In this document: positions 3,876-39,186 of the stretch, piece by piece
Position numbering within the stretch: position 1 is the first letter of the stretch
Layout: every line of letters begins with the position of its first letter
NCBI GenBank assembly: GCA_001938485.1
Contig: MQRK01224867.1
Coordinates: 1-64,000 of the forward strand
Origin: Girardia tigrina
Taxonomy: Eukaryota
DNA: 64,000 bases
Direction of reading: 5' to 3'
Notes under the pieces: model-generated
The model's database searches: none
What the model was told of the DNA's origin: nothing
The model's input: only the letters and a program-made list of their open reading frames with translations
Translations under genes and position numbers: made by a program

Positions 3876-4293
3876 TGTGAGGAATGTTTTGAATTGTGTG
3901 TTGATATTGTGCATGTTGTATGTTGATTCGGATAGTGCTTCTCCTACACAGATGGATGATTGATATTTTCTTTGATTCTTACTAATTAAAAAATAATTTA
4001 ATTTAGTTTTAAAGTAAAAAGATTTAAAATAATTTTTGAATGTATTATTTATTTTTTAATGTAATTTAAAATTTTAATATATTGATTTAATATGTTCTTT
4101 TTTTAAAAAAAATGTTTAGATTTAATTTCAACCAATTACATTCTTTATAATTAATAATTTTTATTATCAGATTTTCATTTATTGAAAATAATTAGTTTGA
4201 ACTCAGAAATATATTGATCAAGAGAGATGTCAAATAGTGAATGCGCTTGTGATATTAATAAATGTTGTAAACCTCATATTGATGTTGTTAATA
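3876..4293 (+). repeat. Solo LTR with TG...TA termini, TSD ACTCT
   Basis: Starts TGTGAGGAAT and ends GTTAATA. ACTCT at 3871-3875 and 4294-4298. Similar to the copies at 6864, 20201 and 38731. Confidence 0.8.
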
Positions 4294-4444
4294 ACTCTAT
4301 CAAATGATTTAAAATATTGGAAGGAATATGAAGAATGATAAAAATTGCTTAATTTGCGAAGAGCATGTACGGAGAATTAATAATCCATAATTTAAATCTA
4401 ATTCTTCACTTGATAGTATTGTTTTAATTATAATTTTTAATTAG

Positions 4445-4511
4445 AGATGCCGCAATTGGAAGATCAACATTTCATTTATCGTTAATTAATTGCTTACGAG
4501 GATTTGATAAG
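4445..4511 (+). CDS. CDC14: CDC14 phosphatase exon (R)DAAIGRSTFHLSLINCLRGFDK
   Basis: AG/GT flanks. Matches the CDC14 segment RDASFGxCTYNLTILDCLQGIRK. Phase 0 junction to the next exon. Confidence 0.8.
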
Positions 4512-4630
4512 GTAATTATGACAATTTAAACATTGTCTTATTGCTTTTATGATTATTGTTTTCAATTTTCTAGACTTCATATTTAAATATTAATTTGAAG
4601 ATTTAAAAGATTTTACTGAAAAGTAAATTA

Positions 4631-5912
4631 TTCGGTTGGCCAAAAAGTCATTGCGTTTTTTACTAAAATATTTATTATCAAAAAATGACATGGATGCACA
4701 AATATTTTTACACGATATACTGTCCATTATTTTCAATCACTTTCTTCCACTTTTCGGTAGCTTCATTATTCCTGATTCATAAAAACATTTGCCTTTGTCA
4801 GCAAAAAAGCCGTCTAGGAACGATTTGATATCATCATCATTGACAAATGTTTTTCTGTTTAAGGAATTCTGCAGTGATTTAAATAAGTAAAAATCCAATG
4901 GGGCCAAGTCTGGAGAATACGGTGGGTGCGGCAAAACCTCCCAAACCAGTGATAAGAGTTTCTGGCGAGTGGTCAAACTTGTATGCGGTCTTGCGTTATC
5001 ATGCTGAATTACAACTCCTTTTCGAATTGCTAATTCAGGACGTTCCTGTTGAATTGAATGAGCCAATTTCTCCACCTGACCATAATATCTGTCTGAATTG
5101 ATGGTTTCATTCCTCGGAAGGAGTTCAAAAAACACAATTCCTTGAAAATCCCACCAGACGGAAAGCATAACCTTCTTTTGGTGAATTTCTGCTTTTGGGA
5201 TCGTTTTCGCAGGCTCACCACGTTTGGTCCATGATCGTCGGCGTTCCACATTGTTGTAAACAATCCATTTTTCGTCACCCATAATGAAGCGCTTCAAAAA
5301 TGGATCACTTTGTTCTCGCTTCAAAAGGGAATCGCAAATGTCTATACATTTCACCAAATGAATTTCTTTCAGTTCATGTGGTAACCACATATCGAGTTTA
5401 CTGACGAATCCAAGTTTCTTTAAATGACTTCCAACACTTGATTTTGATATTTCCAGAGTCTCTGCAACTTCTCTGTTCGTCATATGTGGATTAGATTTGA
5501 TCAGTGCTGTTATTTTGTCGCCATCAACTTCAACTGGTCGACCGGAGCGTGGTGCATCTTTCAGATGAAATTTTTCAGAACGAAATTTAGAAAACTAGTA
5601 TTGACACTGTCGAAATTTTAAGGAGTCACTACCATATACAAAACATATCTTCTTATGAGCTTGCACAGCGGTTTTCCCTTTGCGAAAATAATGCAACAAA
5701 ATATGTCGAATATGCTCATTTTGATTTTCCATTTCGAATTGACGGTAAAGTAATCAATTAAAACAAAATCAATTAATATTTTGTATAAACATAGTCTGAA
5801 AATTAAGGTTTCAGAATATATAATTGAATTTAAATTTTATCATATCGTTTTATATTTTCAAGCTTTTTATTAGGACGTACTCAAAAACGCAATGACATTT
5901 TGGCCAGCCTAA
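4631..5912 (-). mobile_element. Full-length mariner (DD34D, cecropia/Hsmar1-like); transposase ~5732-4706 inactivated
   Basis: ~30-bp TIRs TTCGGTTGGCCAAAAAGTCATTGCGTTTTT / AAAAACGCAATGACATTTTGGCCAGCCTAA with TA flanks. Motifs PRSGRP, WLPHEL, GDEKW, HDNARPH, YSPDLAPLDF. One in-frame stop near 5597 and a C-terminal frameshift. Confidence 0.95.
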
Positions 5913-6208: not shown

Positions 6209-6672
6209 TGTTAAGGGAACTCACAGATTTGACAGAACATTTATTACATTCTCATTTCTTATCATCTTTATGATGATCAATAGTATTGCTTTCACTTAGA
6301 TCCATGAATCAATTTTCAATATCTCCCATCATAATCTGAACTATATTTGAGAAGACCACTTTATTTAAAAATATTTAATTTAAATTTTATTGGCTGAAAT
6401 AAAATATTTTTATAGTCATTTTTAAACATTAATTTGATTTTAATTATTTAAAAATTTACAAAAATAAAATCANNNNNNNNNNNNNNNNNNNNNNNNNNNN
6501 NNNNNTAAAAATTTGAATATTAAATCTAAATTTAAATAAATTAGTTTCAGATTATAAGAAATTAAATATTGATAATCCATCTGGTTAGGAGAGACACAAT
6601 CCCAAATCAACATACAACATTTAAACATGCAAAAACTACACAAAAACATCCACACACCAAATATTCCTCACA
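6209..6672 (-). repeat. Solo LTR, TG...CA, TSD AGTAA
   Basis: TGTTAAG...TTCCTCACA on +, flanked by AGTAA on both sides. Near-identical to 22278-22741. Confidence 0.9.
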
Positions 6673-6863: not shown

Positions 6864-7390
6864 TATTAAGGACACCAACATGGGTTTTCGAACTTTTATT
6901 TCCAATACAATTAGAATTGTCTTTTGGACAACTCTCAGCAAAACTTTCGTAATTCGACATCGTTCTAAATTGATAACTTTTAGTTAATGTTTTTTAATAA
7001 ACAACTATTCGAACAAATTTTTCATTATTTTCAGATTTTATTTTTAAAGTTCAAATTTTGTAATTTTAGTAATAATTTTATTTACATATTAATTTTATTT
7101 AAAAAATGATTTTATGTAAAGAAAGAACATTTATTTAATTCAAAACTTAGTTATAACTATTTACTTTATTTAAATTTTAATATGCAAATTTGAAAAGATT
7201 TAATATTTTAAAGTTTTTAAATATCTTATGTACTTTAAAATGCAAATTATACTCGAATAATTATTTATCGTGAACATCTAAAATATCAATTTTCCACCTG
7301 GGTGGGAGAAACACATTTCCAAATACTAAACTCAACATACAAAATTCAACAAACCAATTTCAGCATACCAAATTTAAAATATTCCTCACA
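6864..7390 (-). repeat. Solo LTR with TG...TA termini, TSD GTCAG
   Basis: Reads TATTAAG...TTCCTCACA on +. GTCAG at 6859-6863 and 7391-7395. Similar to 38731-39186. Confidence 0.8.
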
Positions 7391-7547
7391 GTCAGTATTA
7401 ACTTCAATATTAGTGTTATTTATACAGATACAGTGATACACAATCTATGACTTCCAATAAGCGACCTGCCACATCTCTACTTAATTATTTTACTAAAATC
7501 CTGCCACTCTAGATTTTAGCTCTTCCACCAAACAAACTTAAGTTTCA

Positions 7548-9600
7548 GTGACTTCCCTGAATGATCCTGTCAATTTTGATGACGTTCCGGTTGAACCGTC
7601 ATCAAAGAAGCGAAAGCCTCAAAAATACCGTGACAAACATTCTTGGTTAACTACGGATAACTACGATGTATTTTATAAAGAATATTATAAAGAGCAGCCG
7701 CTCCCAAAAGGTTCTGACGGAACTTTTATCAACCAACCCTTTACTAATTTAAAGAAAACTACGGAATGTTCTTCTAAAAACAATAAACTACTGAAACATG
7801 CCGAATCAGAGGCGCATCGTAAAGCAAAATGCTTCCATGTAGCCAAAGAAGACTCTCGAGTTCATGAAACTGTTTTCAATCAATTGCACATAGCAAGGGA
7901 ATCAGTAATGCAAGAAAATCAAGATCTTCTAGTAGACTATTTAAAGGTAGCATATTGACTTGTTAAAGAGAAAATATCGCACACTATAAAGTATTACAGA
8001 CTACTGGATCTGTGTACTGAGCTAGATGGTAGTGGGCGCATGAAGCAATGGCAGGAGCTCCGTCCTCAAAATGCTATTTATATGTCCCACAACATTCCTT
8101 GTGAGTTTCTTGTTGCTTTTAAAGAACACATACAAGTCTTTAAAAAACCAACTGAAAGTATTCAATATTAGTGTGCCCTATATGTCTGTAATGGCCGATG
8201 AGGCGACTAATCTGCGAGCAAGAACTACTCTGTCAGTTTGTCTTCGTTATGCTAACATTAATGGTGAACCAAAAGAAATCTTTATAAGTTTGCAGGAGTT
8301 GAAAAATACAGAGGCAACTGCAATAAAAGAAGGGATTCTGCTCGCATTAAGAAATCTTGAAGTCCAATGTCAGGAGGTAAAGTGGTTGTCCTTTGATGAG
8401 CTAACAATATGTCGGGTAAGCAAAATGGAACACAATCACAAATGATCAAACACCACACTAAAGATGCAGTCTAAGTCCATTGTCGAAGTCATCTGTTGAA
8501 GCTTGTGTGTGTCTATGCAGCATATAAATACAGGGACATAAAGAACATGTTCTCTGCTCTTAATAGTCTTTGGCGGCTACTTTATAACTGTCCCAAAAAA
8601 ATCGTAAATTCAAGACTGTACAAGAGATCCTAGATGCCCCCAAGTAGATCTCACACGAGCAGGAGACACAAGATGGACATCACACTATCAATGTGTTTCA
8701 GCAAAAACCAAATGTCTGTATGCTATCATAGTTACTCTGCAAGAAATTCATGCCGACAGTGGTGATTTATCCTCAGAGGCTGGTGGCCTTCTACAGACAC
8801 TTCAAACTCGCAAAGAAATTATAATTCTACATGCCCTGAAAAGAATTCTTCAGTCTCTCTCAATCTTGGCAAAGCATCTTCAAACTGCCACAGCTACACT
8901 TGCCACTATGCAGGAAATTGTTGCTACTGCACGTTTAACTCTGACTGAAATAAGAGATAAAACTCTTTATGAAGATGATGTCACTTTCTTCCTTCAATCG
9001 CATTCATTAGCACTTGTTGAAGACAACAATGCAGAGGAAGACAGATTACGCACCAAAGTGATTAATCCATTTATTGATTGCTTACTTGACAGCATGGACT
9101 CCAGGTTTTCCGATAAGGCGATGACCATGTGCACAGCTACATCTATCTTTGATCCACGTAAAATTCTACAGATGTTTCAAATTCTCATGCTCAATTACGA
9201 ACAATTTACAAGAGTCACCCATTTCTTGAAAATATTGTTGTGGATGTGATTGAAGATTTTAATGTATTCCGAAATCACATAGCTATTCTCCGAATGAAAG
9301 AAAACGTGCCATCCTCTAGTGAAGTTCTTCGCTCTCTTGTCAACACCAGCGGGGTGCTGAGCGGCACCTTTCCGAATCTTTCAATATTAGCTTTCATTAT
9401 TCTCCTGTGTCCTTTGAGTACACCTTCTGCCGAGAGGTCCTTTAGTACAAAGAACCGAATCGAAACTCGACTTAGATAGCGACTCTCTCTCACAAATCTA
9501 GAAGCGTGTATGCTCATTTCCATCGAGGGAAAGGATACACTTTCTGATGAGGAAGCATGTGAAATTCTTCTTATTTTGCATAGGCAAAAGGAGAGGCGAA
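7548..9600 (+). pseudogene. Degenerate hAT transposase (ZNF862-like)
   Basis: KHAESEAH, SVMADEATN, VHCRSH, TRWTS, and a C-terminal dimerisation motif FPNLSILAFIILLCPLSTPSAERSFS. Many frameshifts. Confidence 0.85.
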
Positions 9601-10151
9601 TTCACATCCCTTTTAAGGGTTAATACTATATATGTGCATTTGTTAATAATTGTAATATCTCTCGATATTCTTTCACAATATTTTTGTTCTGTCAGTGTGT
9701 TTGCTTTTTGTCGGATTGTCTGTATATTAGTGTTTTCATCACATACATCCACCTTTTACAAATTCATGTAGTTGTATGGGTTTTAATCAAGTCTACATTG
9801 AAGTGGATGAAATAATTAAATTGGAAATGTGTATTTGTTTGTATATATTGGTGTGTGGAAACATGTGTATATTGTGTGATTTGTTTGTGTTATGTTTGTA
9901 ATTGTATAAAGAAAAAAGGCAAATAATATTTTCCATTGAAAGATAATATAAAAATCAAATGATGGATTATATTCTTCTGATATGATTGTATTAAATTTGG
10001 AATTGTGACTCTTCTACCCATGTTTTATTGTAATACTGATATTTGGTTGTTCGCATAGTATTTGTAATATTAAAAGTTGAACAAGCAATTAATACCCCGA
10101 TAAAATTTTAATTATTATGAAATAATAATTAATGTTAATATTTAAAATGTA

Positions 10152-12290: not shown

Positions 12291-13593
12291 TAAGTAATAT
12301 TCTTTAAGACTTATAAAATACATTTAAAATATTTTAATTAAATGAATTTTAGAAAATTAAAGTTTAGTAAAATAGTTAGTAAATTAAGTTTTAAAAAACT
12401 TAAACATTTTTATAAAATTTTGAAAGATTTAAAGAATAAATTTTACCAGAAATTAATAAAAATTTGTTTTCATTAATCAAGAAAAACAAAACTTCAAATT
12501 TAGTTTGATGATAAATAGTGGAAGTTCTATTGAGAATTGTTCCGAAGACAATTCAAATTATGTTATTAATAAAGCTTCGAAAACCATTGTAACGCTTTTA
12601 TTTTTCTAATGAATAATGATTCAGAATTTTACAAATGTAAATATTATTCAATTTTTTTCTGTTCTTTTAAAAAAATATCTAAATTTTCGAAGCACAATTT
12701 CCAAATAAATTCACGGAGAAATGTCTAAATTAGTCGGACCGAGAATTTCTCTTAATCACAAATCAAGAGACGAGAAATTAAATTAAAAAAAACTACAAAA
12801 AACGGATTGTTTGAATGAGCTAAAGGTAGAAATATGACGAGGGCGCAAATTCAAAACAAAACCTGAGCAACAAAAAAATCAGTTTTCATTTGGATTTTAT
12901 TTGAACGATAAATATTGTAGTTTGTTCATTCGGTCTTTTGATTTCATTTTTTCTGGGAACCGTATCGGAGCCCACTACAACCTTTATGAATGTTAATAAT
13001 AGCTATTTTTGATAAATAATTAGAAGTTGTACAAGTAGTACAAGTGACAATCGTAAAAAATATACAAATTGACTTTCTAAAAAAATGACTATTTCAAAAT
13101 AAAAGGTTTTTTTATTCGCAAGTTCAATGTAATAATTAAGTTTCATAGTTTCTGCAGATACTACTCAAATAAAACATTGTCAGTAATTTTTCTTTTATGT
13201 AAAACAGAACATCTTTTATTTAATGAATCAACATTAAAATTAACGTTTAATTTTAGATGAATAAATAGAACGTAAAAGTTTTGTGTAAGAGGCGCATTGT
13301 GTAGAATTTATAAAAAAACGAGATACTCAACTGTAATATATATTGTTGGGTATAACAATTAAATCTTGTTTCTATCTTTATTTATATTAAACTACTGATC
13401 TGACTCCAAATCGACCAAAAGGTTTCCTCCAACAATAATATATGAAGAATGAACAAATCCTTTTAATAATAATTTATTCTGCTAACAACAATTGAAGTTC
13501 AAATATAAATTCAACTCTATCAGTACGCTAAAATTCAAAGATCACACTTCGATCAAACAGTTACAACAACTTCTTAGTTCGAGCGATGTTAAA

Positions 13594-15997: not shown

Positions 15998-16051
<54 letters not shown>

Positions 16052-19151: not shown

Positions 19152-20200
19152 GTTTTGGGGGTTTAGGGTGTATCTTTTAGCTAAAATCCCTTTACTCATA
19201 AGTAGACAAAGTGAAAATAATTGCCCCTTCTGAGAATTTTTTTTAAATAGAGTTCAAATATATAGATATATACAATAAATTTATTTTATAATTTTTTATG
19301 TAAAAATGATAATAATAAATCATTTTTAAATATCTGAAATTGGACTTTCACAAATAATATATCAAGATTGTTAATTTGAAATTCTATTCTAACAATCTGT
19401 ATCGCGAACCACCCAAAAATATCAATCAACCATATGGGTAGGAGAGAATCAATTCCATTAGGAAAAACAACATACAAAATGCAAAACACACTTCATTATT
19501 CAAAATACTCATTACTGACTGGATAGCATATGATGAGTATTTTAACAAGGAATTACAAGGTTTTATAAATGATATGATGAGTTAGTTAATTTTCTTTTCG
19601 CTGATAAAAATTAAATAATTTAAATAATTATATGTTGTATTTTAATAAATATATAATTTTTGAAAATAATAAATTTGACTAAATAAATTTTAATATTCTG
19701 GAATACAAAATTTTTTTAATTTAAACAAATGAACAATATTTATGAATAATTATGATTAAATAAAATCGAATTAAATAATATTTTTAAATTTTTGTTTCTG
19801 AAAATTTAATCAGAATTTGAAAATATATAGTTAAATAGCGGCAAATTGATTATTAAAAGAAAATTGAAAATTTGTTTGAATTTGTTTGTAATAAAAATTA
19901 TTAATTGTGCTATTCCTGACAGACAATATTGAAGTAACTAACAAAGGAATTTATTTCTTGTTATTTTTAAATGTCGACCTATACGCTGTTAAATATATAA
20001 AAATATTTCAAAATGAAATATACTAAAATTTACTAAAATTACCCCAAAATGTAAGTATTTACTTAAATCTAGTTTTTTTTAAAACACATTTAATTTAAAT
20101 TTAAAGAATATCACAAAATAATATTAGTAATATTGAATAAAGGATAGTACCAAAAGTTAATACATTGTATGACAGGTTGCTTCATTTGCATATTTAATGC

Positions 20201-20702
20201 TGTGAGGAATATTTTAAATTATTTGAATGTGTAAATGTATGGATGTTGTATGTTGATTTAAGTATGTTGAATTTAGAATGGTGATTCTCCCACCCAGATG
20301 GAAATTGGTATTTTTTTATTACATTTAAAGGATTGATTATTCGAACATAATTAAAATAATCATTTGATAAGTTCATATTTTTAATTTCACAATTCAAATT
20401 AAATTTAATAATTTTTAGTAAAATTTAAATTAAATGCATTTTTAATAATTTGATGAAATTTTTATTATTTTGGGATTTATCGAGAAATGGTAAAAATTAT
20501 TATTTTTTAATTAATATTTTTTAGACGTTAAATATTTTAAAAAATAACTAAGAAAAATTTTTCGAATAATCATGATTAATAATAGAAATAAGAAAACCAA
20601 TTAGAACGATGGCAAACGATGAAGGACCTTCTGAGTGTTGTAATGACTCTAAATGTAATTGCAATAAAGATTTAAACGAGACTTGTCTAAATGTTCTTAA
20701 TA
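20201..20702 (+). repeat. Solo LTR with TG...TA termini, TSD AATGC/AATGA
   Basis: TGTGAGGAAT...GTTCTTAATA with a 4/5 TSD match. Shares the CTCCCACCCAGATGGAAATT block with the other copies. Confidence 0.75.
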
Positions 20703-22047: not shown

Positions 22048-22948
22048 ACGGATGACGGGCCAACTGTGCGGCCAGGCAGACATATTTCTACATAGTGTCC
22101 CTAAAAAAATAGAATGGGCTCGACTCCGTCTCTAGGCTAAAGTGTCTGATAAGCTAGCCGATATATTGCGGAACAGCCGGTAATATCTTGTATTTAGTGT
22201 TGGACCAGCAATCCATCAACTAGGCTTAGCTATATAATCTGAGTGTGAAGGCTGTGAGGAGTAGTGACCTTGCGGTCTGTTAAGAGAACTCACACATTTG
22301 ACAAAACATTTATTACATTCACATTTCTTTTCATCTTTATGATGATCAATAGTATTGCTTTCACTTAGATCCATCACTCAATTTTCCATATCTCTCATTA
22401 TAATCTTAACTATACTTGAGAAAATTATTTTATTAAAAAATATTTAATTTAAATTTTATTGGCTTAAATAAAATATTTCTATAGTCATTTTTAAACATTA
22501 ATTTGATTTTAATTATTTAAAAATTTACAAAAATAAAAATCATTAAAATTTTTTAAAAGTTTCAATAATAAAAATTAAAAATTTGAATATTAAATCTAAC
22601 TTAAAATAAATTAGTTTCAGATTATAAGAAATTAAATATTGATAATCCATCTGGTTAGGAGAGGCACAATCCCAAATCAACATACAACATTTAAACATGC
22701 AAACACTACAAAAAACAATTATACACCCCATATTCCTAACACGGTCGATGGTTGGATTGCAACGTAATGATTCAGGATGAATCAATCCTGATGAACGCTG
22801 CTGCAATGAAGTCGGTTAATCGGCGGAGCTGAGGCATGCAAATCCCTACATGGGGGAGTGCCTTTTGAGAACCATCAGCGTCCCAGACCTCCTAAAAATC
22901 CTCAGGCTTAATACCGTAAAGGAGTAGAGGTGCACGGATGACGGGCCA
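22048..22948. mobile_element. Unclassified GC-richer unit bounded by 15-bp direct repeats, interrupted by a solo LTR
   Basis: ACGGATGACGGGCCA at 22048-22062 and 22934-22948. GC content well above the flanks. Confidence 0.5.
22278..22741 (-). repeat. Solo LTR, TG...CA, TSD CGGTC
   Basis: CGGTC at 22273-22277 and 22742-22746. Near-identical to 6209-6672. Confidence 0.9.
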
Positions 22949-24587: not shown

Positions 24588-24818
24588 GTTACTTGTACCA
24601 TACACCAGAAATGTATGTATCTATATTTCACAAATGGAGAATTAGTACTGTAATACGTCTTAATTCACCAGAATATGATGAAAAAGTATTTATAAAGGCT
24701 GGAATAAATCACCACAATTTAATTTTCCCAGACGGTGGAGTACCATCCGAAAGATTAGTCCGAAAATTTTTCGAAATTGTGGACACATCTGTTGGAGGAG
24801 TGGCTGTCCACTGTAAAG
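24588..24818 (+). CDS. CDC14: CDC14 exon (GYLYHTPE...VIRLN...FPDGGVP...VAVHCK)
   Basis: CDC14 catalytic-domain motifs; AG/GT flanks. Confidence 0.95.
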
Positions 24819-24864
24819 GTATTTTATCATGTCTTTTAAAAAGCCCAAATAATCATGAAAGTAG

Positions 24865-25003
24865 CTGGATTAGGAAGAACAGGAACTTTGATAGGTTGTT
24901 ATTTAATGAAACAATATAAATTCACTGCTGGTGAAGCTATTGCATGGATTCGTATTTGCAGACCAGGCTCCGTTATTGGATATCAACAAAATTGGTTAAT
25001 GGA
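24865..25003 (+). CDS. CDC14: CDC14 exon ([46 protein letters not shown])
   Basis: Completes the HCKAGLGRTG active site across a 46-bp GT-AG intron (24819-24864). Confidence 0.95.
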
Positions 25004-25046
25004 GTAATTTTTATTCATTTTATTCCATTCTTTTTAATAACTTACT

Positions 25047-25079: not shown

Positions 25080-25789
25080 NNNNNNNNNNNNNNNNNNNNN
25101 NNNNNNNNNNNNNNNNNNNNNNNNNNNNNATATATATATATATATATCCATGAAATTTAGAAACCTGTTTTTAAAGGCCTTCTACTCAATCGATTTTCTT
25201 TAAACTTAGCATACTTCCTCATTCTCGATGACATGATTATGTAAAAATTTGATCGAAAAAAATCTTTTTAAGATCCTCAAATGGGCTAAAAGCGGAAAAT
25301 TCGGAGTTATCAAAAATATTAATTGCAAGATATCTATTTATAAATTATAAGTAGTTTATATTAATTTTTAATGTTTTTTTAATTGAACTTTTTTAAATTT
25401 TAAAATCTTTGTTGGCAAAGTAGAGTTCTGTCCGCATAAAGATCAGATATAAAAAATTTAATTTTTTGATTTACTATTTTTGTATATTTAAATGACAATA
25501 TACAATTAGAAATTTGTAAAACAAAAATTTAAATTTTGTTTCAATACCGACCTGTAAGATAAACGACTGTTAGAACGCAAGAATAATTTATAACAATTTA
25601 TTTAAATCCAAATTCAAAATTGTGTGCAACACTCAATTATTTAAACAACACAGCATAAATTAATTTAATATTTAATTAAAATAATTTCGAGAGACTTCAG
25701 AAAATTTTAGAACCGATTGTTAATATTGATTTTAATAAATTATAGTATTAAGATAAATTATAATAAAGATAATTCCTCACATCCCCCCT

Positions 25790-28700
25790 CGTTAGAAAAG
25801 TTTTAGTCACTCCACATTTCTTCTAATTCTTCTACCGTCTTCACTTTTTAGTTCGTAACTACGATTATGGACCTTATTAATCATTTTAAACAGTCCTTCA
25901 TATCGGTATGCTTGTTTGGATATGTTCTGTTGCTTTACTAGAACTTCATCACCAACTTCAAAGTTTCGTTTGCCTCTATGAGCGGTGCTATAAGTGACTT
26001 TATCCTGATTTATACGTGCTTTCTCAATGAGATCTTTTATTCTTGTTTATTACTTGCGTTACACTACTGCTGATTTATTTTGAATCCGAAAATGATTTCA
26101 GCTGGGCTCATCTGCATTTCTTTTTGATTTGTGGCATTCAAACTAAACTCAATTTCCGGTAGTAAATCAACCAAAATTTTTTTCGTTCTTTAACTAATGT
26201 TGCATTCATAAAATCCCTTATGGTTCGAAATTGTCTTTTCACCAGTCCGTTAGTGCTCTGGTGGTAGGATTTGAAAATTGTAATTTTATATTATACTTCT
26301 GTGCCATTAATTTCATCAAGTTAGATTCGAAACTTTTACCACAATCGACATGGATTATTCTTGGTGCACCAAACTTCAGTATCCAGTTTTTTACTATTGT
26401 TTTTACTGTAGTTTCTTTGTCTTGTTTTGTCACTGCATTGAGACTGATATATCGGCTACAATTGGTATATGATTGCCCAGACATATCATTTTCTGTATTT
26501 ATTTGGTTTCATAGGGCCACAAAAGTCTACATATATCTCTTCGAAAGGATGTATACCTTGTTGTTATACCATTTCTTTTGTTCTTCCTGTAAATGTCATT
26601 TGTTTTTGACAAGGTTCGCATGTGCCTATGACGCATCTTATGTTCTCAGATAACCCATCCATGTCATATTTATCTTATATATAATCTGTAACATTTTGTA
26701 TCCCTAAATGACATAATATGTGATGTATATCTATGATAAGTTCGATCGTTTTAGATTTTGGTTATAATAATTATTATTATCTAATAATTATTATAATTAT
26801 TATCTTTTTTAATTATTATCTTTTGTCACCACCACGTTGTCCTGTAAGTGAAACTGGTCTTGCTTACTTGATTCGATTTGTTTTTTATACTATATATTTC
26901 TTCATTATTATTCTGCCACCTCTGTCCATTTATCTCTGACTCTAGTGCTAATATTTTGGTCTTCATTTTTCCTGTTTTGGCATCAGGATGTTGTAGTTCG
27001 CAGTGATTACATGTTCCACATTTGTTCCGGGATAGTCCATTTGCATTACAGTGAAGTGCCCCATTGCGATATTCAAATTTCATATCCAGGCTACTTAATA
27101 AATTTAACCAAGTTTGAAATTGGGAGGTAATTGGTTTTTTTGTCGTTAACATATACGTTATCGCCTTATGATCTGTGTGTAGTGTAAACTGTTTTCAATA
27201 TAAGTAGTGTTTGAAATGTTGCGTAAAGTAGTAAATTGCTAATAGTTCTTTACTAGTGATACAATACCCTATCTCATGTTTATTCATGGCATGGGATCCG
27301 TATCCTATAAACATTTCGTTTCCGTTATCATCCAATCAGGAAAGGATCACTCCAATGGCATTAAAACTCACGTCTGTGTCCAAAATGAATGGTTTTTTAA
27401 AATCTTGGTATGTCAGTATCTGTGCCTTACACAGTAATTCTTTTAACTGATTGAAAGATTTTTCGCACTCATCGTTCCAGTATAACTTATCTTTATTGCT
27501 ACCACACAATGTGTCTAGATTTCGAGATATTTTCGAATAGTCCTTAATAAATTTCCTATAGTAATTGCATAGTCCTAAGAAACTTCTAAGATTTTTTACA
27601 CAATTTGGTTTTTCGAAGTTTTTTATGGCCTAGACTTTCTCTGGGTCTGTCATCACTCCCTTTTCATTGATGATATGTGAAGTGCCCGCATATTTTTTTT
27701 ATTTATAACAAAATATTTATTTGACTATCTATTTACTGTGTGTTGTGATGGACAGGGTCATTTTTTTGTGTTTTGAATGGGTTTGATTTTTTTATTTATG
27801 TGAATGGTAGCGTGAGAAGACACCAATGAAAGTAAAGAAATGACAGTGGATGATGAAATTATGAAGAAAATAATAAATAAATTATGAAGGCAATAATATA
27901 TTTGGCACGAAAATAAAAAAATCAATAAACAATTCAAAAAGTCAATAGCCTATATCAAAGCCAAATATTATAAAACCTCTCACCAAATTCCAAGTGGATT
28001 TATTTCTTATTATTCAATTCCCTGTGAATACAAAAACCGAACACAAAAATTCTTGACCAGCTCCATACAAATATTTGTTTTGCTGACAGAAATAAAGTAA
28101 CTTTGTACTATTTGAATCCCCTATAACTGACTTTATTTTTTTTGTGATATCCTTCGTTTTATCCTTCTGTTGTATTGTTATTAATCTAATCTTTTTTTAA
28201 ATTAACTTATTGTCTTTATTCTTATTTATATTCGTAGGTGGATTAAAAATTCGGTTCATCCTATATTTAATCCATTTCAATATGTCCTAAAAAATTAATC
28301 TCTTTTTGTATTAGTTTGCATTTTTCTGGTTTTACTTTTAGTCCAGCAGCTCTAATCCTTCCAAATATTTTATTTAACATAGTTACGTGATCTGTCGTTG
28401 TTTTTGAGAAAATCAATATATCATCCAGGTAGACTAGGGCCTCCTTCCGATTCATATCTCTAACCACTACATTCATAAGTCTTTGGAACGTTGCAGGGGC
28501 TGCTGCTATTCCAAACGGCATGCGATTAAAACAGTATTGACCAACTTCTAGTTTAGAACGCAGTTTCTATCTTTGAATTTTCTTCCAATTCCACCTGGTA
28601 ATACGCATTCCCTAAATCTATCGTGCTAAAGTATTTTGAACCATTTAGTGTGTCAATCATATCTTCAATATTTGGCATGGGGTATGCTGGCCGTTCGGTA

Positions 28701-29478
28701 ATTTTATTTAATTGTCTGAAATCTAGACACAATCTTATTTCATCTTTTTCCTTCTTCCATACGCATACCATGGGTGTGTTCCATGGTGAACTACATTTCT
28801 TTATGATATTATTGTCCTCAAGGTTTTTTATCAAATCATATATCTTCTTTACCAGATAGGCCGGCTTTCTACGGGGTCTCATTAATATAGGTTTCCCAAA
28901 CGTTTTTATACTATGCTTTAGCAAAATTGTGCACCCTATATCCCATTTAATCGCCATATCTCTTTATTTTGCTGAATTATTTCATATAGGGGTGATTTAA
29001 TATCTATCTTCATTATTTCTCTAGCATTTTTACATCTGTCATTATTCTAATAAGTTTTTCCGAAGTTTGTGCCTAGACTGCATATTTCCTTACTATTACA
29101 TAAATCAAAATTATTATTTTCATCTGATCGAGTATACTTATCTCTGTTCAGAAAAATTTTAAAGGCGTTCATAAAATCCATACCATATATTATTTTAGGA
29201 GACAACTTTTCCGCAATATAAAACTTTATCCGCTTTTTTGTTCCCTCTATTTCTAAATCTAAAGATATCAATCCCATAACTTTCAGTGGATTATCATTTG
29301 CACATACGATATTGTTAAAATCATTATATTCTATTTCAATATTTAAACTCTTTATTATACTTCTATCAATGACATTGATTCTGGCCCCTGTATCTAACAA
29401 ACAATCGAAATATTTATCATTAATTTTTACAACTCTACTTGGCCTACCATTCATTTTATCAAAAACTATTTTAAACAT
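25790..29478 (-). pseudogene. gypsy pol (PR-RT-RH-IN), frameshifted
   Basis: LLDTGARIN, RLCLDFRQLN, MPFGIAAAPATFQRLM, YLDDILIFS, WILKFGAPRIIHVDCG. Confidence 0.95.
27678..28279. repeat. Nested solo LTR (602 bp) inserted in RT, TSD ATATG
   Basis: TGAA...TTCA termini. ATATG at 27673-27677 and 28280-28284. RT reads FLGHI|INEKGVMTDPE across the insertion. Confidence 0.85.
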
Positions 29479-29562
29479 GGGAGAGCGTGAGAAATTTTGT
29501 TATATTTTTATTTACATTTACAACCGATATAGTAGATATATTAAAATATTTAAAAGAATCAT

Positions 29563-30438
29563 TTATACAATTACAATTTGATGGTGCAAGAGCGGGCGCA
29601 GCGATTTTGTAGCTGTGGCACGCCGGTGACGGGGAGCGAACATCCGGTCGGGGGTCACATTTAAAATTTGCACCTCGAGAATCGGGTTGATGACGATCGT
29701 GAGAATGGCCTTGATGATCTGCAGCTGCACGGCGTCCCCGGAATGGCCGTCCTGAAAGGCGTCACAGATGAACACGATGATCTTATCGATGAGTCTTTCA
29801 TTGGAGGAGTCGCGATAGAGCGCCGAGTTCGAGATGTGACCGTATGCATTCAGTTTCTGGAGACAGTCGAGTGCGATCACGATAATTCTCTGAGACTTGC
29901 ACGAGAACGCCATTTCGAATGACCGAAAGAAGCGCGGATCGTTCATGAGAGTGTCGACATCGGATTTGATCGACGGTAAGACGACGACTGATTGGCCGTT
30001 TGTGTCGGTAATTTTCTCTTTCAATTGCGCCAATACGTTGTCGCAACATTTCTTTAGTTCAGAGTTATGAGACCTTTTGATTTCTTTGTCGTGGAGAATT
30101 CGCGGCTCAGTGTCTCTCAGCTCACGATACCAATAATTGATTTTATTGAAACTGATCGATTCTGTTAAGTCGAAACACAAAATCACCGCCTTAGCGCCGC
30201 GATAATGCATTCGTGTCATTGACTGATATCGCCCGCTCCCTGCCGTGTCCCAAATGCCCATTATAATCGGAATATTATTGCTGTTCTTCAACTGGCGCGC
30301 GTGATAGGCCGCCCTCATTGTCGGTTGATAGGCGTTATTCGCCTGGAAATTCCCGTTCAAAAATCGATCGACTAATGCAGTTTTTCTAACGCATTCTTTG
30401 CCCAAAACAACAACTTTCAAGTCGACTTTGGTTACCAT
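29563..30438 (-). CDS. Chimeric intronless ORF (291 aa): Rab24-like N-terminal half (30438-30103) fused in frame to a BIG1/ARFGEF-like N-terminal DCB region (30102-~29669); probably a retro-captured pseudogene
   Basis: VDLKVVVLGKECVRKT...GIWDTAGS...YRGAKAVILCFDLT (Rab24-type WDTAGS), then ILHDKEIKRSHNSELKKCC...LDCLQKLNAYGH...LIDKII...VQLQIIKAILT (BIG1/2 N-terminus). Confidence 0.85.
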   Translation of the reverse strand: MVTKVDLKVVVLGKECVRKTALVDRFLNGNFQANNAYQPTMRAAYHARQLKNSNNIPIIMGIWDTAGSGRYQSMTRMHYRGAKAVILCFDLTESISFNKINYWYRELRDTEPRILHDKEIKRSHNSELKKCCDNVLAQLKEKITDTNGQSVVVLPSIKSDVDTLMNDPRFFRSFEMAFSCKSQRIIVIALDCLQKLNAYGHISNSALYRDSSNERLIDKIIVFICDAFQDGHSGDAVQLQIIKAILTIVINPILEVQILNVTPDRMFAPRHRRATATKSLRPLLHHQIVIV

Positions 30439-30917
30439 TACAATTCGAAATTAACGATAAAAATTCACACTGGATAAATTGAAAATCGAAGCAGAATTAA
30501 TGTTTATTTATTTATCTTCACAAATTGATTCGAATTCAATGAAAAAATAATAATGGCGACTTCAATTTCTGTTTAAATCTTTTTTGCGTCAACAAAATTA
30601 AATTAATACATTTAAACAACTCGAATAATTAAAATAAACATATTGTCATTTGCACTGTCCGATTCACTCAAAAAAACCGATTACAAATTAATTTTCAAAT
30701 AAAACCAAAAAAAGTATAATAGAAATTTCAATTTTTAAAATCCAAATTTTGAAGAATTAGATTTATTTGTGGAAATTCACAATAAGTTTGAGCCGGTTCT
30801 GACTGACAAGAAATATTCTAAATCTCGCTTTCTAGCACTAATTTTGAAGGCTTATTTCATCGTGAAACACAATTATTTACATTACAAATAAAGGTTCTAG
30901 AACTTTCTTACCCCTTA

Positions 30918-31907
30918 TCATATAGCTCCCATCACCTCTCGTCTTGACGGAGCATGCCCATTTGGGGATTGTTTATATTCTGATATATCCACGGTTTTCA
31001 CATCGTCATCCATTTCATTGAAGTCAATCGCTACCATGTTCCTCGAGTTACCGCCGAACCTTCTGTCGCGTTCACGGAGTTGTATTTGTCTTTTCTGAAA
31101 ACATTGGTAACTAAAATGTCCCCTTTTCTTACAATCGGAGCAAGTGATATTTTGGCATTCCTGTCTGATGTGGCCATATTCTTTACATGCATAACATTTC
31201 ACTTGCCGAATGGGGCAATTTCTCATAATATGACGTTCTCTTTGGCACGACCGACAGATTAGGTTTTTTCGGTATAACTCTCTTCCTGGCATTCGTCTTT
31301 GCATGCTGTTCCATTGTTCATTCCTCACTGACGCTGGAAAATCTTGCTTCTGTTTAACAATTACCAGATATGAGTGTCTTCTCTGAATCGTTGAAATGTC
31401 TTGGGTTTCTTCCTTCTCGATTATTTCCATTTTATTGATAATATCTTTAATTTAATCGACTTCCACTGCGTTTCTGAGGGTTAATTCCCTTTTAATAGCA
31501 TTGTTTTTTGTAATATGTACCAAAAGTATGAATTAAGTTCTGTTTCATTCCATTTGTGGCTTCATCAACTTCTTAACCATTAATTCAATTTTATCAAAAT
31601 ATACCTTTGCACAATCCAATCATTTTTCATATTTGTATAAGGATATAAGATCTTGTATTAGAGATGACGGTATTGTGAACGCTTTTCTTAATCTTTCCTC
31701 GAATTCTGTTATCTTCGGGTCCACTGATTCGTATATCGCGCTTAAATCTTTGGTGATGAACGCTTTGACCAAAATTCCTTGCAGGTGTTGGTTCGTGCCT
31801 GATACTTCAAAAAATCTCTTGCATTCCTTGATAAACTCTTCTAAATTTGAATCCACCGCAATCTTTGCTGGAACCAAATTTTGTAAATAATTAGGCGTGG
31901 TCGCCAT
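30918..31907 (-). pseudogene. gypsy gag with zinc knuckles, disrupted
   Basis: Starts MATTP at the LTR/PBS junction. CYACKEYGHIRQEC and CSDCKKRGHFSYQC knuckles. Stops and frameshifts. Confidence 0.9.
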
Positions 31908-32277
31908 GTTAGTACATAAGAATAATTTATAACAATTTATTTAAATCCAAATTCAAATTGTGTATAACAATCAATTATTTAAACAACACACCGTAAATTA
32001 ATTTAATATTTAATTAAAATAATTTCGAGAGACTTCAGAAAATTCTAGAATCGATTGTTAATATTGATTTTAATAGATTATAGTATTAAGATAAATTATA
32101 ATAAAGATAATTCCTCACAACGACAATAGAAGTTCCTATTAATCATGTATAATTAAATTATTCAAAAATTTGAAATTGAATTTGGAGCTTGATTTGATCT
32201 AAAATATAAAAAAGTAGAGTTTTTTCACACAAGTTTTCGCCAGCAAAAACACGCTATTCAATATTTGATCACGAACT

Positions 32278-34197: not shown

Positions 34198-34268
34198 AAT
34201 CTTGATTTAATCCTTCGAGTCAGCACTTTTCCGGAACCTGCCGGAAACGACGAACGGACTGGCGTGCA

Positions 34269-36340
34269 CAGGGCCGGATTTACAGTTTCAGGGGCCCTAG
34301 GCCAAAAAAATGGGGCTCTATTTTGAAAAATAAAAAATAATACCAAGTTTATTTTTGTTTGAAAAAATATAATAGTCGTTTAATTTACCTCAAAATTTTA
34401 TTTCAATCAAATTTACATATTTTTTCTGTATTTTTCATTGACAAAATCGTTAATTAATGAATCAAAATCAACTGACCTCATTTTGTCAGCATTACTTGAT
34501 AATAATGCAACATTATTTAACGTTTTTTGGGAAAGAGTTGATCGCAAACAATTTTTTGTTAATTTTAATTTGGAACATGACCACTCTCCAGAACAATTTG
34601 ATATAATGAAACACATGAAAATTCTAAGTATTATTTCGGTATTAGGAAATGTAATCTCCATTTGTTTTTTCCTTAATAAGTTTATATAAATCCAAATGAG
34701 AGAAATGAGGAGCTTGGGTATTGAAATGATTAATAAAATATTTATGTATGTGTTCGATTTCAGAATATAAATTTTCGTCAATGTCTTCTGCGTAGTCTTC
34801 CACGAGACGACCAGCACAAATATTTAGTTTATCTTTATTGCTTCTTGTGTCTATTAAAAATGCAAATTTGTCATTCAATTCATGGTAGCATTGAGCTCTT
34901 TCTTTCAAATCTGTAGTGAGATTATTGACGATTTTAGGAAAACATTTTTCTTAAATTCTTCACGTGGACTCAACTTAAGTTCCTCTGAACAATTTTCACC
35001 TGGAAGAACTTTCATTTTACGGCGTCTCTTTTCTAAATAATCAGTATTTGGTAATAATCATGTAACATCTTGTTCTATTGAATCGAATTTTTCAGTTAAT
35101 CCAAGAAAATAATCAGGAAGAGATGAATAAAGTTCAGAACATGTATCAAGAGTAATACTAGCATGTTGCAATGATTTGGAAACTGCATTCATTCGTTGTA
35201 AAATTTTATCTCACATTATTGTTTGTATGGAAAATTCAAAAGTTTCCATTTTTTATAGTAAATTTCCAGCCTCTGCTCTTGCTTTCGTTTCAAAACTTGA
35301 ACTTACATTGATTGTAAGTAATGCTTCCATCAATTTGTTGTAGTTCTGGTAAATACATTTGACTGAGTCAGGATGAGCACTCCATCGAGTATTCGATAGT
35401 GATTTCAGTGAACTACTTCCTAATTGTTCCAAAATATTCCATCGCTTTGTAGAAGCAGAAAAAAATTGTACAGTTCTTGAACAATATCGAAAAAGTTAAT
35501 TGCTTCGAAATTATAATTCATACCAACCTCTCCTACTAAGTTAAGAGAATGACTTGAACATGGCAATAATTTTGCAAAGTTATTAAGTTCCAAAGTTCTA
35601 CTTTTCATGCCTTTATATTTTCCAGTCATATTACTGGCGTTATCATAAGACTGGCTTCTCCAGTTGCTGATTTCTATGTTCAATATTTCGTTTAAAAAGT
35701 TTACCGTTACATTTGCTAAATTTTCCCCTGTGAGATCATCCATATGGATGTAGTTGACAAATCTTTCAATTGGCTCATTGGCTTGATCTATGTACCTCAA
35801 AATCACACATAATTGATCTTTGTAAGTCACGTCAGGTGTCGAGTCTATTGATAAGCCATAATACTTCAATTTTAGAACATCATCGCTTATTGATTGCAAT
35901 ACTTTTCTTGACATCAATACGATCAATTCCTCATATGTAGTCTTCGAGATGTAGTTTGTTTTTCCAGAACCACTGTCACCATAATTTGTTATGTGCTCGT
36001 TCAAAAAAGGATCAAACTGTGCAATCAACTCTAGCAGACCGATAAAATTTCCGCTGTTATCAGTCCCAAATTTTCCATTCGAACCTCTAAAAGCTAAGTT
36101 TCTTTCAATCAATGTACAAATTACAGCCGTAACTCTTCTTAGAACCTCTCTCCAGTAGTTTCGCTCTTTACAAATTTGCAGTAAAAGTTGATCCTTTTAA
36201 ATGCTTTTTTTTCTATGAAAGTATTTTAAAAAAGCTGTTTTGTGCTCAGATGAGTTTTCATGGCTTTAAATCGACGCCACGGAATTTTTCCAATCTTTAA
36301 ATCCGATTGAAGCTAGAGCAAATTTTGAGGCTTCAAAAGG
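34269..36340 (-). mobile_element. Degenerate hAT transposon (ZMYM1-like transposase), one terminus retained
   Basis: Terminus CAGGGCCGGATTTA...GGGGCCC. Motifs LAFRG..NSGNFIGLLELIAQFD, DSTPD, QSYDNASNM, FPNTEIILRIF...KLKLTKNCLRSTLSQ. Confidence 0.9.
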
Positions 36341-37521
36341 TACAGAATACACAACCCAATGTTGGTGAATATATAAATATATATTGGTGAATATCTTTCT
36401 ATTTGATATTCATCATCTAGAGATTTTCGATATTTATCCCCTTTCAATCGTATTAATCAATGAAATAATCGAGCATGAATCGAAATCAAAACAATAACTC
36501 ATTCTTCAATAATTTTTTAAATGTATAATTGTATCACAAATTTTTATTCACGTATTCTTTCAAACACGACCTAAATCAATTCATAATTTTTATGCACGAA
36601 TGAGCCAAAAAATTCTTTTATTCACTTTCATCACAAATTGTGGTGATTCGGAGTGGCGATGATTAAAAATAATACGAAATAAAAAAAATAAATTGAAAAC
36701 TTAAATCTGGTGTTTAACCTAAAAATAAATGGTGAACTTTTGAAAAACAAGAATCGATATTGATGTAATTTTTTTATAAATAAATGTTAATTGGTGCACC
36801 ATCGCCTTTTCTCTTTTTTTCACATGACTGACGACTCATAGAACGATGTGTCCGGACTCTTCACAGCCCCACTCGAAGGAACCAGGAACTGCCGCCGGCT
36901 GTTACGAGAGCGAATATCTGAACCAGAACCAACCGTTTGCCACATAGTCAAACCTAAACCTGGGCTGTCATGGAGTGCTCGAACTACATCTCCAACCGGC
37001 GATACCCCACACGATCAAGAGGTGCTGGTTACCACAACCTAGTCCAGTGACCAGCACTTCACAAATACAAATTCAAATCTCAATACCCAATTCATTTTTT
37101 TACAAACGAATTCAAATTCCAATTTGATCACCTTTACACGAATTCATTTCATCTTTCTTTATTTCGATTTAGACAAACAACCAATTTAATCTCTAAATCG
37201 AAAATCCAAAAACGATAATTTTGGACAGAAAAAACCACTCACAAAAATTCGAAAATCCTAATCATATTTCTTTTTTTTGAAAATTTTACGACTCAATTAA
37301 TTTGTTATACGAAACTTCAATTTAATCGCACAACAATTTTCTGGTAACAATAAATTCAACTATAAAAATTCATTTGATAATTATTTTTTATTTATTTATC
37401 TCATCAAGTTTTAATGGACAATAATTATTTAAGCGCACAATCAATTTTTATTTAGACTTTCAACTTTTTTTATAATCGAACAACATGATTAATTTGGGTA
37501 ATTTATGAAAGCTTCTTTCAG

Positions 37522-37890
37522 TCACCAAGCCTGGTGTTGGAGAATCGGTCCGATGCATCAAAATGTTGTTCGACGAACTTTTTCAAGTAAAACAGGAGAT
37601 AACAGGGCTAAACTATCAGCTCTAAATAACTACGATATAAAAGTCCCGAAAAATCCTTTCTATGATACAAGTGACAAAGATATTTCTTTAATTCCTCAAG
37701 GGGACATGTTAAATAGCATTAAGTCCTTTAACAGAATCAGTCAGAATTTGTTGGAAACAAAAACTTCAAGTGGTGTGCATAATATACTTTTAGATGATTC
37801 AAATATACCACAATTTGGAAGGAACAAAGGAAGCTTTAGACAATATAATCGACAATCTTTGTTCTCGACTGACAGTTATGATGATAGCGA
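37522..37890 (+). CDS. CDC14: CDC14 C-terminal-region exon (HQAWCWRIG...QGDMLNSIKS...)
   Basis: TTTCAG acceptor and GTAAGT donor. Phase 2 matches GA| at 25003. Resembles CDC14 KQASLWVQG and QGDKLRALKS. Confidence 0.8.
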
Positions 37891-38730
37891 GTAAGTTATT
37901 TTACTTAACATGAATTACTGTTTTATATCAAATAAAGATTGTATGTAAAAATTATATAGTTAGTATATAAAATCAAGAGTTCTACAATATTCTCTGATTT
38001 TCATAGATGAAGATAAATCTAGATTAATCTATTAAATGTAACTTAAATATAAACTAATTATTTATTTAAGTTTCACTGCGGCTTTAAATAAAAGAATTTA
38101 ATTCAGGCTCAACATCGAATGAACATAAGTCAAAACTTCTTGCTAATCTTCTGACAGCCTGATTTTAGAATGCTTTGTGACCAATGTAAGTAAGTAATTT
38201 GATGAATCAAATCATTCGATTGATCTAATTCAACGAGAAATGTAAAATTTATTATAAAACTCTCTAAGGAGTCCCTCTTCTCTTAAGGTTTATTTGATAA
38301 CGAAGAAACAAAATCGAAGCAATGATCACATGCAAGAATCTTCTGAGACAATTTGTGTCCAGTCGCTTTGGACGAATTCCTTTTTCAATCACGAAATAGT
38401 TTGACCTTGAAGAAGCTTTTAATTATGAAAACGATCACGTGTGTTCGAAGGAACCTCTATCACTCAAGGAAGACACTATGCCATTATAAAAAAATCGAAA
38501 AGATCACAATCCTTATATATATATATATATATATTGACATCATCAAACGTATTTTTAACTACTTTGTGAATATCACTTATATTTGTTTTTACAAGCACCT
38601 TACAATACACATTTTACAAATGTACTAATTGTACATTTTAAACTTTGTTTCGAATTATCAAAGTCGAAAATCTAATTGTTAAACCTTGACTTCCCTCCTA
38701 GTATTACTAAATCATAGCTTTTATTACTTG

Positions 38731-39186
38731 TATTAAGAGCACCAATATGGGTTTTCACACACTAATTTCTTTTGGACAACTCTCAGACAAGCTTCCAGAA
38801 TTTGACATCTTGCTAAATTGATAATTTTTTGTTAATGTCTTGTTAATAAATAATAAATAAATCATTTTCATATTTTATTTTTAAAGTTCTACTTATAATT
38901 TCGGTAATAATTTTACCTAAATATTAATTTAATTTTAAAAATGATTATATTAAAAAACATTTATTTACTTAAAATTAAAAATCAGTTAAAAGTTATTTAC
39001 TTTATTTAAATTTTTGATATTAAAATTTGAAACGATTTAATATTTTAACAGTTTTTATAATATCTACTGTAATTTAAAATGCAAACTATGATTCGTGAAC
39101 ATCCAAAATATCAATTTCCATCTGGGTGGGAGAAACACATTTGCAAATACTAAACTCAACATAAAAAATTTAAGATATTCCTCACA
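38731..39186 (-). repeat. Solo LTR with TG...TA termini, TSD ACTTG
   Basis: TATTAAG...TTCCTCACA on +. ACTTG at 38726-38730 and 39187-39191. Confidence 0.85.

What the first reader, a model, noticed from the sequence alone, without database searches (positions are those of the whole stretch)
3876..39186. LTR 3' ends encode a Cys-rich peptide in a fixed frame; the CA/TA terminus difference is synonymous (AAC/AAT = Asn)
Seen: an ATG-initiated frame runs to the LTR end in diverged copies: MSNSECACDINKCCKPHIDVVN (3876 copy), MSNYESFAESCPKDNSNCIGNKSSKTHVGVLN (6864), MANDEGPSECCNDSKCNCNKDLNETCLNVLN (20201), MDLSESNTIDHHKDEKKCECNKCFVKCVSSLN (22278). The 6209 and 38731 copies are disrupted, and a relic lies near 12510-12600. 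Lengths differ but the frame is preserved, always ending CTT/GTT-AAY-A, so the last LTR base is codon position 1. Followed by a PBS (TGG) it would read ATG, as in the intact element at 31907. Inference: translation starts inside the LTR and reads through the att site and PBS into gag, giving an N-terminally extended Cys-rich Gag. One sequence would then serve as integrase att site, primer-site junction and coding sequence.
Basis: partly seen in the sequence, partly recalled or inferred. Interest (0 to 1): 0.75.

Follow-up and report, generated by a model that had tools for sequence, protein, structure and literature searches.

The report
Gag gene starting inside the LTR
The end repeats of several very abundant jumping-gene families in this animal genome carry the first 22-32 codons of the element's capsid gene, so the same short DNA is likely read as protein, RNA-end signal, integration site and primer junction, a yeast-Ty1-like layout here found across a large gypsy-type lineage.

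Summary
Confirmed. The six copies are solo LTRs (5 of 6 with a perfect 5-bp target duplication) from four Ty3/gypsy-type families. Four carry an ATG frame of 22-32 codons running to the last LTR base (chance 0.03-0.04 each). The layout is lineage-wide: 56 of 69 related Gags have such a leader, and 55 of 56 end in N, Y or H, as an LTR end of ACA/ATA dictates. Cys-richness is limited to one seven-family group. Its invariant Asn-Lys is an AATAAA poly(A)-type signal read in frame. Only one Cys is constant, and the leader is predicted disordered. The CA/TA difference is synonymous, but nothing shows that this is why it is tolerated. The 31907 element is a decayed, leaderless relative, not an intact member. 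New lead: four sister families carry a PCNA-binding-like (PIP) motif in the same leader. Translation and transcript ends are inferred. Layout known from yeast Ty1; new variant.

The parts
3876..4293 (+). solo LTR, family 1 (418 bp, TG...TA, TSD ACTCT)
4227..4292 (+). LTR-encoded Gag leader, 22 codons; 20/22 identical to the N-terminus of full Gag P0165
4257..4262 (+). AATAAA read in frame as Asn-Lys (likely poly(A) signal)
6864..7390 (-). solo LTR, family 2 (527 bp, TG...TA, TSD CTGAC)
6865..6960 (-). Gag leader, 32 codons; 31/32 identical to full Gag P0235; AATAAA at 6895-6900
6209..6672 (-). solo LTR, family 3 (464 bp, TG...CA, TSD TTACT); leader 6210-6305 broken by a stop at codon 18
22278..22741 (-). 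solo LTR, family 3 (464 bp, TG...CA, TSD GACCG), inserted in another repeat whose empty site is seen in sequencing runs
22279..22374 (-). Gag leader, 32 codons; 30/32 identical to full Gag P0199; AATAAA at 22309-22314
20201..20702 (+). solo LTR, family 4 (502 bp, TG...TA, TSD with one mismatch)
20609..20701 (+). Gag leader, 31 codons; 23/31 identical to full Gag P0079; AATAAA at 20663-20668
38731..39186 (-). solo LTR, family 2 (456 bp, TG...TA, TSD CAAGT); leader from 38808 frameshifted, AATAAA lost
12410..12600 (+). relic of a family-2-like LTR 3' half, leader still readable at 12508-12600, terminus lost
3941..3955 (+). conserved box in the LTR 5' part, shared by all six long LTRs (likely U3 promoter element; function not tested)
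25568..32119 (-). decayed full-length relative with 213/214-bp LTRs, TSD GTCGT, order gag-PR-RT-RH-IN; leaderless
31896..31907 (-). LTR last base plus primer-binding site forming the ATG-GCG-ACC-ACG start of gag in the leaderless element

Best explanation
These are solo LTRs of Ty3/gypsy-type retrotransposons whose gag reading frame begins inside the LTR and runs in frame through the LTR end and primer-binding site into the capsid, so Gag is likely made with a 22-32-residue, predicted-disordered leader. SHOWN: solo LTRs with TSDs; leader frames beyond chance; full-length Gags of the same four families carrying the leader fused through N|MAT; the layout in 56 of 69 relatives. INFERRED mechanism: transcription starts in the AT-rich middle of the 5' LTR, and ribosomes start at the leader AUG (purine at -3 in 5 of 6 copies). 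Leaky scanning to the junction AUG (A at -3, G at +4) would give a shorter Gag, the only form open to leaderless families. The leader codons are overlaid on RNA and DNA signals: AATAAA read as Asn-Lys 37-40 nt from the end (likely the 3'-LTR poly(A) signal), the integrase end read as Leu/Val-Asn, and the primer site read as Met-Ala-Thr. The rest of the leader drifts quickly with frame-keeping indels. The Cys are likely partly a by-product of TG-rich 3'-end signals and partly selected (one constant CxxNK cysteine); their likeliest use, if any, is lipid or metal attachment on a tail outside the capsid core.
For: Full Gags matching each window peptide: P0165 20/22, P0079 23/31, P0199 30/32, P0235 31/32; further cluster members repeat the fusion. 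Of 157 representatives examined, 85 matched the Gag N-domain near their start and 69 had the MAx junction; 56 of these 69 have a leader (3-54 aa, median 16), against 0.16-0.25 expected for any in-phase ATG. Residue -1 is N 49, Y 4, H 2, E 1, against a 23% background for N/Y/H/D. GC is 0.28-0.34 in the last 100 nt against 0.10-0.14 mid-LTR, with codon periodicity. AATAAA lies in the leader in 5 of 6 long LTRs and 35 nt from the end, in another frame, in both LTRs of the leaderless element. NK at -12/-13 in 7 of 7 Cys families. Model of P0199: residues 1-40 pLDDT about 50, core above 80; best fold matches are dArc, copia, Ty3 and PNMA2 capsids (E 0.01-0.07); the family profile hits dArc1 at E 4e-4. 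A PIP-like motif conserved in the leaders of four sister families argues that these leaders are translated.
Against: No transcript start, poly(A) site, ribosome or peptide data: all runs laid were contigs and the RNA labels were guesses. Database Gags are gene-caller predictions that favour the most upstream ATG, and cluster representatives may favour long forms. I saw their proteins only, not their DNA, so the LTR position of their leaders is inferred from the match to the window LTRs. 13 of 69 relatives, and the 31907 element, have no leader, so it is dispensable in the lineage. 16 of 85 rows without the junction motif were dropped before counting. Leaders are less conserved than the capsid (37% vs 57% mean identity, 21 pairs). 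Further ATGs lie upstream in every LTR. No fold match reached E 0.001, and the alignment over the leader is shallow, so low pLDDT is weak evidence.
Confidence: 0.82

Rival explanations
1. Gag starts only at the junction ATG (LTR last base plus primer site), as in the leaderless element. The open frame upstream is a passenger that is not translated.
For: The junction AUG has a strong context and Met is kept in >=90% of 55 aligned Gags; 13 of 69 relatives are leaderless and lie at several places in the tree; leaders diverge fast.
Against: The junction Met is forced by the att and PBS letters, so its conservation says nothing on use. An untranslated stretch would not keep ATG-led, stop-free frames in 56 of 69 families, codon periodicity or a PIP-like motif.
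Confidence: 0.12
2. The leader is translated and its cysteines are a selected module (S-acylation site or small metal site) that targets Gag. This refines the best explanation rather than excluding it.
For: 15 Cys observed in the four intact leaders against 8.0 in stop-free dinucleotide shuffles (P 0.0013); TGY triplets 15/113 in frame against 0/109 and 8/109 out of frame; CxxNK in 7 of 7 family representatives.
Against: The families are related, so the P value is optimistic. Cys number varies from 2 to 5 among representatives, and positions change to Y/S/H between subfamilies. No Pfam match; predicted disordered. The leaderless LTR has a similar TGTT-ATAAA run right after its AATAAA, pointing to an RNA-signal origin for at least the Cys after NK.
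Confidence: 0.3
3. The LTR peptide is a separate small product (3'-LTR or solo-LTR ORF, like retroviral LTR ORFs), or a chance frame.
For: A solo or 3' copy reading into its flank is on record as a 40-aa prediction (P0244).
Against: The frame has no stop of its own inside the LTR and is fused to Gag in all four families; chance is 0.03-0.04 per LTR.
Confidence: 0.04

Closest known systems
Saccharomyces cerevisiae Ty1 (Ty1/copia)
   Same: [quoted passage not shown]
   Different: Ty1 is copia-type and primed by tRNA-iMet. Here the relatives are gypsy-type (PR-RT-RH-IN in the 31907 element) with CCHC knuckles, the junction itself creates a second in-frame AUG, a poly(A)-type signal is read in frame, and the leader varies from 0 to about 50 residues between families.
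Yeast Ty3, Drosophila dArc1/dArc2, PNMA2 capsids
   Same: Closest capsid folds and profile hits.
   Different: In Ty3 the 5' PBS segment lies next to the 5' UTR and is not described as coding (PMC4974528); no LTR-encoded leader.
Microsporidian Ty3/gypsy elements with coding mini-LTRs (earlier scan notes e1-7176853, e1-7177335; unchecked AI notes)
   Same: Start codon and poly(A) signal in the LTR, frame reading through LTR end and PBS.
   Different: LTRs of 38-160 bp there; those elements have one polyprotein (PMC4202319, passage), whereas here LTRs are 418-527 bp and gag has its own stop. Relationship not tested.
MLV glyco-Gag (recalled, no call)
   Same: Upstream in-frame start giving an N-terminally extended Gag beside the shorter form.
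   Different: Glyco-Gag starts at a CUG downstream of the PBS and is a membrane glycoprotein; here the extension lies upstream of the PBS, inside the LTR.
LINE-1 ORF2p PIP box (for the sister-family lead)
   Same: A retroelement protein with a PCNA-interacting motif (PMC7617806 and PMC5478143, search listing only; the biology is recalled).
   Different: Non-LTR element, motif in the enzyme; here the PIP-like motif is in an LTR-encoded Gag leader, and not in the window's own families.

Membership tests
Solo LTR of an LTR retrotransposon | Target-site duplication flanking a single LTR, no internal region | tested here: met
   5 of 6 perfect 5-bp TSDs, 1 with a mismatch; empty site with a 469-nt skip (LTR + 5) in runs X1, X3, X12
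Solo LTR of an LTR retrotransposon | TG...CA termini | tested here: inconclusive
   TG start in 6 of 6; CA end in 2 of 6 and TA end in 4 of 6 (three families), so the end is non-canonical in part
Ty3/gypsy (Metaviridae) | pol order PR-RT-RH-IN | tested here: met
   Met in the related 25568-32119 element (Pfam); pol of the four leader families was not seen
Ty3/gypsy (Metaviridae) | Gag with Ty3/Arc-type capsid and CCHC knuckles | tested here: met
   zf-CCHC, profile hit to dArc1 E 4e-4, Retrotrans_gag features 0.93; fold matches weak, E 0.01-0.07, with copia among the top
Ty3/gypsy (Metaviridae) | PBS next to the 5' LTR, polypurine tract before the 3' LTR | tested here: met
   Seen directly in the 31907 element; for the leader families the PBS is inferred from Met-Ala-Thr. 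tRNA identity open: the same 11 letters are labelled Arg or Trp in PMC4724089 (passage); no tRNA gene in the window
Ty3/gypsy (Metaviridae) | Placement in a named clade by RT phylogeny | not testable with these tools
   No reference set of named clades was on hand
Ty1-like layout | gag start upstream of the PBS, inside the LTR | tested here: met
   In-frame fusions for 4 of 4 families; use of the start codon not testable here
Ty1/copia | IN before RT; tRNA-iMet primer | tested here: not met
   IN follows RH in the related element; its PBS is not of the iMet type
Metallothionein or zinc-finger module | Conserved multi-Cys spacing, family profile match | tested here: not met
   0 Pfam hits for 4 of 4 peptides; only one constant Cys
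PIP box (sister families only) | Q-x-x-[ILM]-x-x-[FY]-[FY] pattern (recalled) | tested here: met
   2 of 56 leaders canonical, 4 of 56 relaxed, all in neighbouring tree rows; pooled shuffles reach either count 1 in 20000; absent from the window's leaders
PIP box (sister families only) | Binding to PCNA | not tested

The most novel reading that the evidence does not exclude
In this gypsy lineage the LTR end works as a swappable protein tag for the capsid: families change the LTR and thereby change what Gag binds. Sister families use a PCNA-binding motif (steering particles or integration to replicating cells), and the window's families replaced it with a cysteine cluster (membrane anchor or metal site), all written over the poly(A) signal, integrase end and primer site.
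Probability: 0.25. Interest if true: 0.75.

Novelty: new variant of a known kind. Interest (0 to 1): 0.5.

Why it matters
LTRs are normally annotated as non-coding. Here a widespread animal gypsy lineage puts the gag start in the LTR, so annotation misplaces its Gag N-termini, and every solo LTR (summed read depth 1-4 million against about 100 on unique flanks, which suggests very many copies) is a portable cassette with a likely promoter, start codon and open frame that runs into whatever flanks it. It is a clean natural case of four overlapping codes in about 45 bases. It also gives a testable lead: PCNA-binding-like motifs in Gag leaders. My one search for that returned only two LINE-1 papers.

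Tried and rejected
No whole genome was held, so full-length copies could not be read from this assembly. Locus searches found nothing: viral contigs with the gag and with an LTR pattern, metagenome contigs with a gag profile and with the LTR pattern. Laying four runs gave contigs only: loose ends at the LTR ends were mixed flanks (agreement about 0.4) and showed no primer-site consensus; nothing on transcript ends or expression can be drawn, and the small-share runs say nothing about habitat. RNA folding of five LTR ends gave z-scores from -1.0 to +0.9: no conserved structure. An intron in the AT-rich LTR middle was considered and dropped, as no donor site is shared in the alignment. dN/dS was not computed: the two within-family pairs are dead copies (6209 vs 22278 differ in the leader by 1 synonymous, 3 missense and 1 nonsense change) and the families are too diverged. 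The TGTGAGGAAT at 41341 is not an LTR start (no similarity to the LTRs; no 5-bp TSD). The tree table's '1 change' for leaderless rows counts them only against the Cys rows; the drawn tree scatters them over at least five places. The 8-row clade holding the 7 Cys families (plus P0201) has support 89/88, not starred. Literature: 10 searches found no description of this lineage or layout in animal gypsy elements; the library lacks most subscription papers and Repbase reports, so this is not proof of absence. Passages of PMC12471100, PMC3601003 and PMC3286476 gave nothing on coding LTR ends. No supplements were read. No complex prediction was run.
Full report
OBSERVATION. The window is AT-rich eukaryotic DNA full of decayed transposons; a G-alpha-12/13-like gene points to an animal host, not identified further. 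Five have a perfect 5-bp target duplication directly after the final A and one has a single mismatch. They share a TGT(G/T)AGGAAT start and a conserved box 55-100 nt in, then an AT-rich middle (GC 0.10-0.14), then a last 100 nt of GC 0.28-0.34. They fall into four families: 6209/22278 are 86% alike and 6864/38731 79%. Four copies carry an ATG frame of 22, 32, 31 and 32 codons that ends with Asn and leaves one base over; the other two are broken. Shuffles give such a frame in 0.028-0.039 of trials per LTR, and the four frames have GC1/2/3 of 0.38/0.36/0.17. Contigs of four public runs show summed depth of 1-4 million on the LTRs against about 100 on unique flanks in the two DNA runs, and the empty site of the 22278 insertion; summed depth is not a copy number.

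THE DECISIVE TEST. No genome was held, so I looked for full-length Gags. The gag of the 31907 element found two relatives; a profile of these was run against 1.84 billion representatives, and a second profile that included the LTR peptides against the 90% clusters. All four window families turned up as complete predicted Gags of 372-388 aa that begin with the LTR peptide and continue through Asn|Met-Ala-Thr into capsid and zinc knuckles: P0165 (20/22 identical to the 3876 peptide), P0079 (23/31 to 20201), P0199 (30/32 to 22278) and P0235 (31/32 to 6864). Several members of each cluster repeat the fusion. Met-Ala-Thr is what the last LTR base plus the primer site give in the 31907 element. These are predicted proteins from unnamed public assemblies; I saw no DNA for them.

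HOW WIDESPREAD. Of 157 representatives examined, 85 matched the Gag N-domain near their start; 16 lacked the junction motif and were dropped, leaving 69. Of these 56 have a leader (3-54 aa, median 16) and 13 start at the junction. The residue before Met is N 49, Y 4, H 2, E 1: N, Y and H are all codons of the form xAC/xAT, as an LTR ending ACA or ATA requires, against a 23% background. This is independent evidence that these leaders lie in LTRs, and it shows that the integrase end dictates the residue. Most leaders are short and acidic. Cys-rich leaders (2-5 Cys) are confined to seven families (23/217 residues against 8/742), which group in the capsid tree together with P0201 (support 89/88); leaderless families are scattered. 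Gene callers favour upstream ATGs and related families are not independent, so the nominal P values overstate.

ANATOMY OF THE OVERLAP. In 5 of 6 long LTRs an AATAAA starts 37-40 nt from the end and is read as Asn-Lys; the leaderless element has AATAAA 35 nt from the end of both its LTRs, in another frame. Asn-Lys at -12/-13 is the invariant of all seven Cys families. I infer that it is the poly(A) signal, which would put most of the leader in R and leave a very short U5. A Cys three residues before it is constant in 7 of 7 representatives; the other Cys change between subfamilies. The four intact leaders hold 15 Cys against 8.0 in stop-free dinucleotide shuffles (P 0.0013), so composition explains about half. 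Leader identity between families averages 37% against 57% for the capsid. A structure model of P0199 leaves residues 1-40 unstructured (pLDDT about 50) ahead of a confident helical core, whose nearest folds are dArc, copia, Ty3 and PNMA2 capsids at weak E-values.

CA/TA. TA ends occur in 4 of 6 copies from three families, three of them followed directly by a perfect target duplication. Independent decay is unlikely, so TA is probably an inherited end that integrase accepts (inference).

THE 31907 ELEMENT is a decayed relative (LTRs 94% alike; stops and frameshifts; order PR-RT-RH-IN) with a 213-bp LTR and a stop 12 codons before the junction. It shows the junction-only state, not the leader state.

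A LEAD BEYOND THE FINDING. The leaders of four neighbouring families hold a PIP-box-like motif (pattern recalled): two canonical, two relaxed; pooled shuffles reach either count 1 time in 20000. Three of them branch successively outside the Cys group and one lies within it. This supports translation of the leaders and suggests that they can carry function. Binding was not tested, and the window's own leaders lack the motif.

MECHANISM AND RIVALS. Most likely (0.82): Gag is initiated in the LTR, with a second start possible at the junction by leaky scanning; the leader is a flexible tail written over the RNA-end, att and primer signals. Rival: only the junction AUG is used (0.12). Rival: separate peptide or chance (0.04). 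Within the main reading, a selected Cys function has about 0.3. Nothing here measures transcripts or protein.

KNOWN AND NEW. Ty1 has its primer site inside GAG behind a 53-nt 5' UTR (PMC4974528 and PMC3592414, passages), so the layout is known. Earlier scan notes report it for microsporidian and copia elements (unchecked). Ten literature searches showed no description for an animal gypsy lineage, within the limits of that library. Verdict: real, correctly read, a new variant of a known kind; interest 0.5, raised by the four-layer overlap and the PIP lead.

Noticed in passing
proteins P0059, P0068, P0075, P0201 (sister Gag families): The LTR-encoded leader holds a PIP-box-like (PCNA-binding-type) motif; 2 canonical, 2 relaxed; 1 in 20000 by pooled shuffles.
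   Followed up: partly
window 29563-30450 (-): Open, GC-richer, intronless 295-codon frame joining a Rab-like GTPase part to a Sec7/BIG1 DCB domain (Pfam), lying between gag and protease inside the 25568-32119 element: possible capture of two host mRNAs.
   Followed up: no
window 30960-30966 (-): Slippery-type heptamer near the gag end; related Gags end in similar QGNE/PNA/SGNE motifs, suggesting a conserved -1 gag-pol frameshift (mechanism recalled).
   Followed up: no
window 22380-22398 (-) and 6311-6332 (-): Short in-frame upstream ORF that stops just before the leader ATG in both family-3 copies; could matter if it lies in the transcript.
   Followed up: no
window 1-703 (+): 3' end of another gypsy element with a 200-bp LTR (504-703) of the same TGTTAG...CTAACA type, without a leader ATG near its end.
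   Followed up: partly
window 62850-63770 (+): Second decayed gag of the same lineage, 5' end unclear.
   Followed up: partly
window 19379-19495 (-): Relic of the conserved 5' part of a long LTR.
   Followed up: no
window 22020-22940: Multi-copy repeat of unknown kind into which the 22278 LTR inserted; empty form present in runs.
   Followed up: partly
window 44649-45338 (-) and 24560-25010 (+): Host genes: G-alpha-12/13-like 3' part and a dual-specificity phosphatase fragment (Cdc14-like by recall) with an apparent short intron.
   Followed up: no
window 4740-5594 (-), 7500-9620 (+), 35420-36196 (-): Mariner transposase with a long open frame and two decayed hAT-like elements.
   Followed up: no
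window 51330-51350 (+): Primer-site-like sequence (Lys type by recall) after an AT-rich low-complexity block; may mark another LTR element.
   Followed up: no
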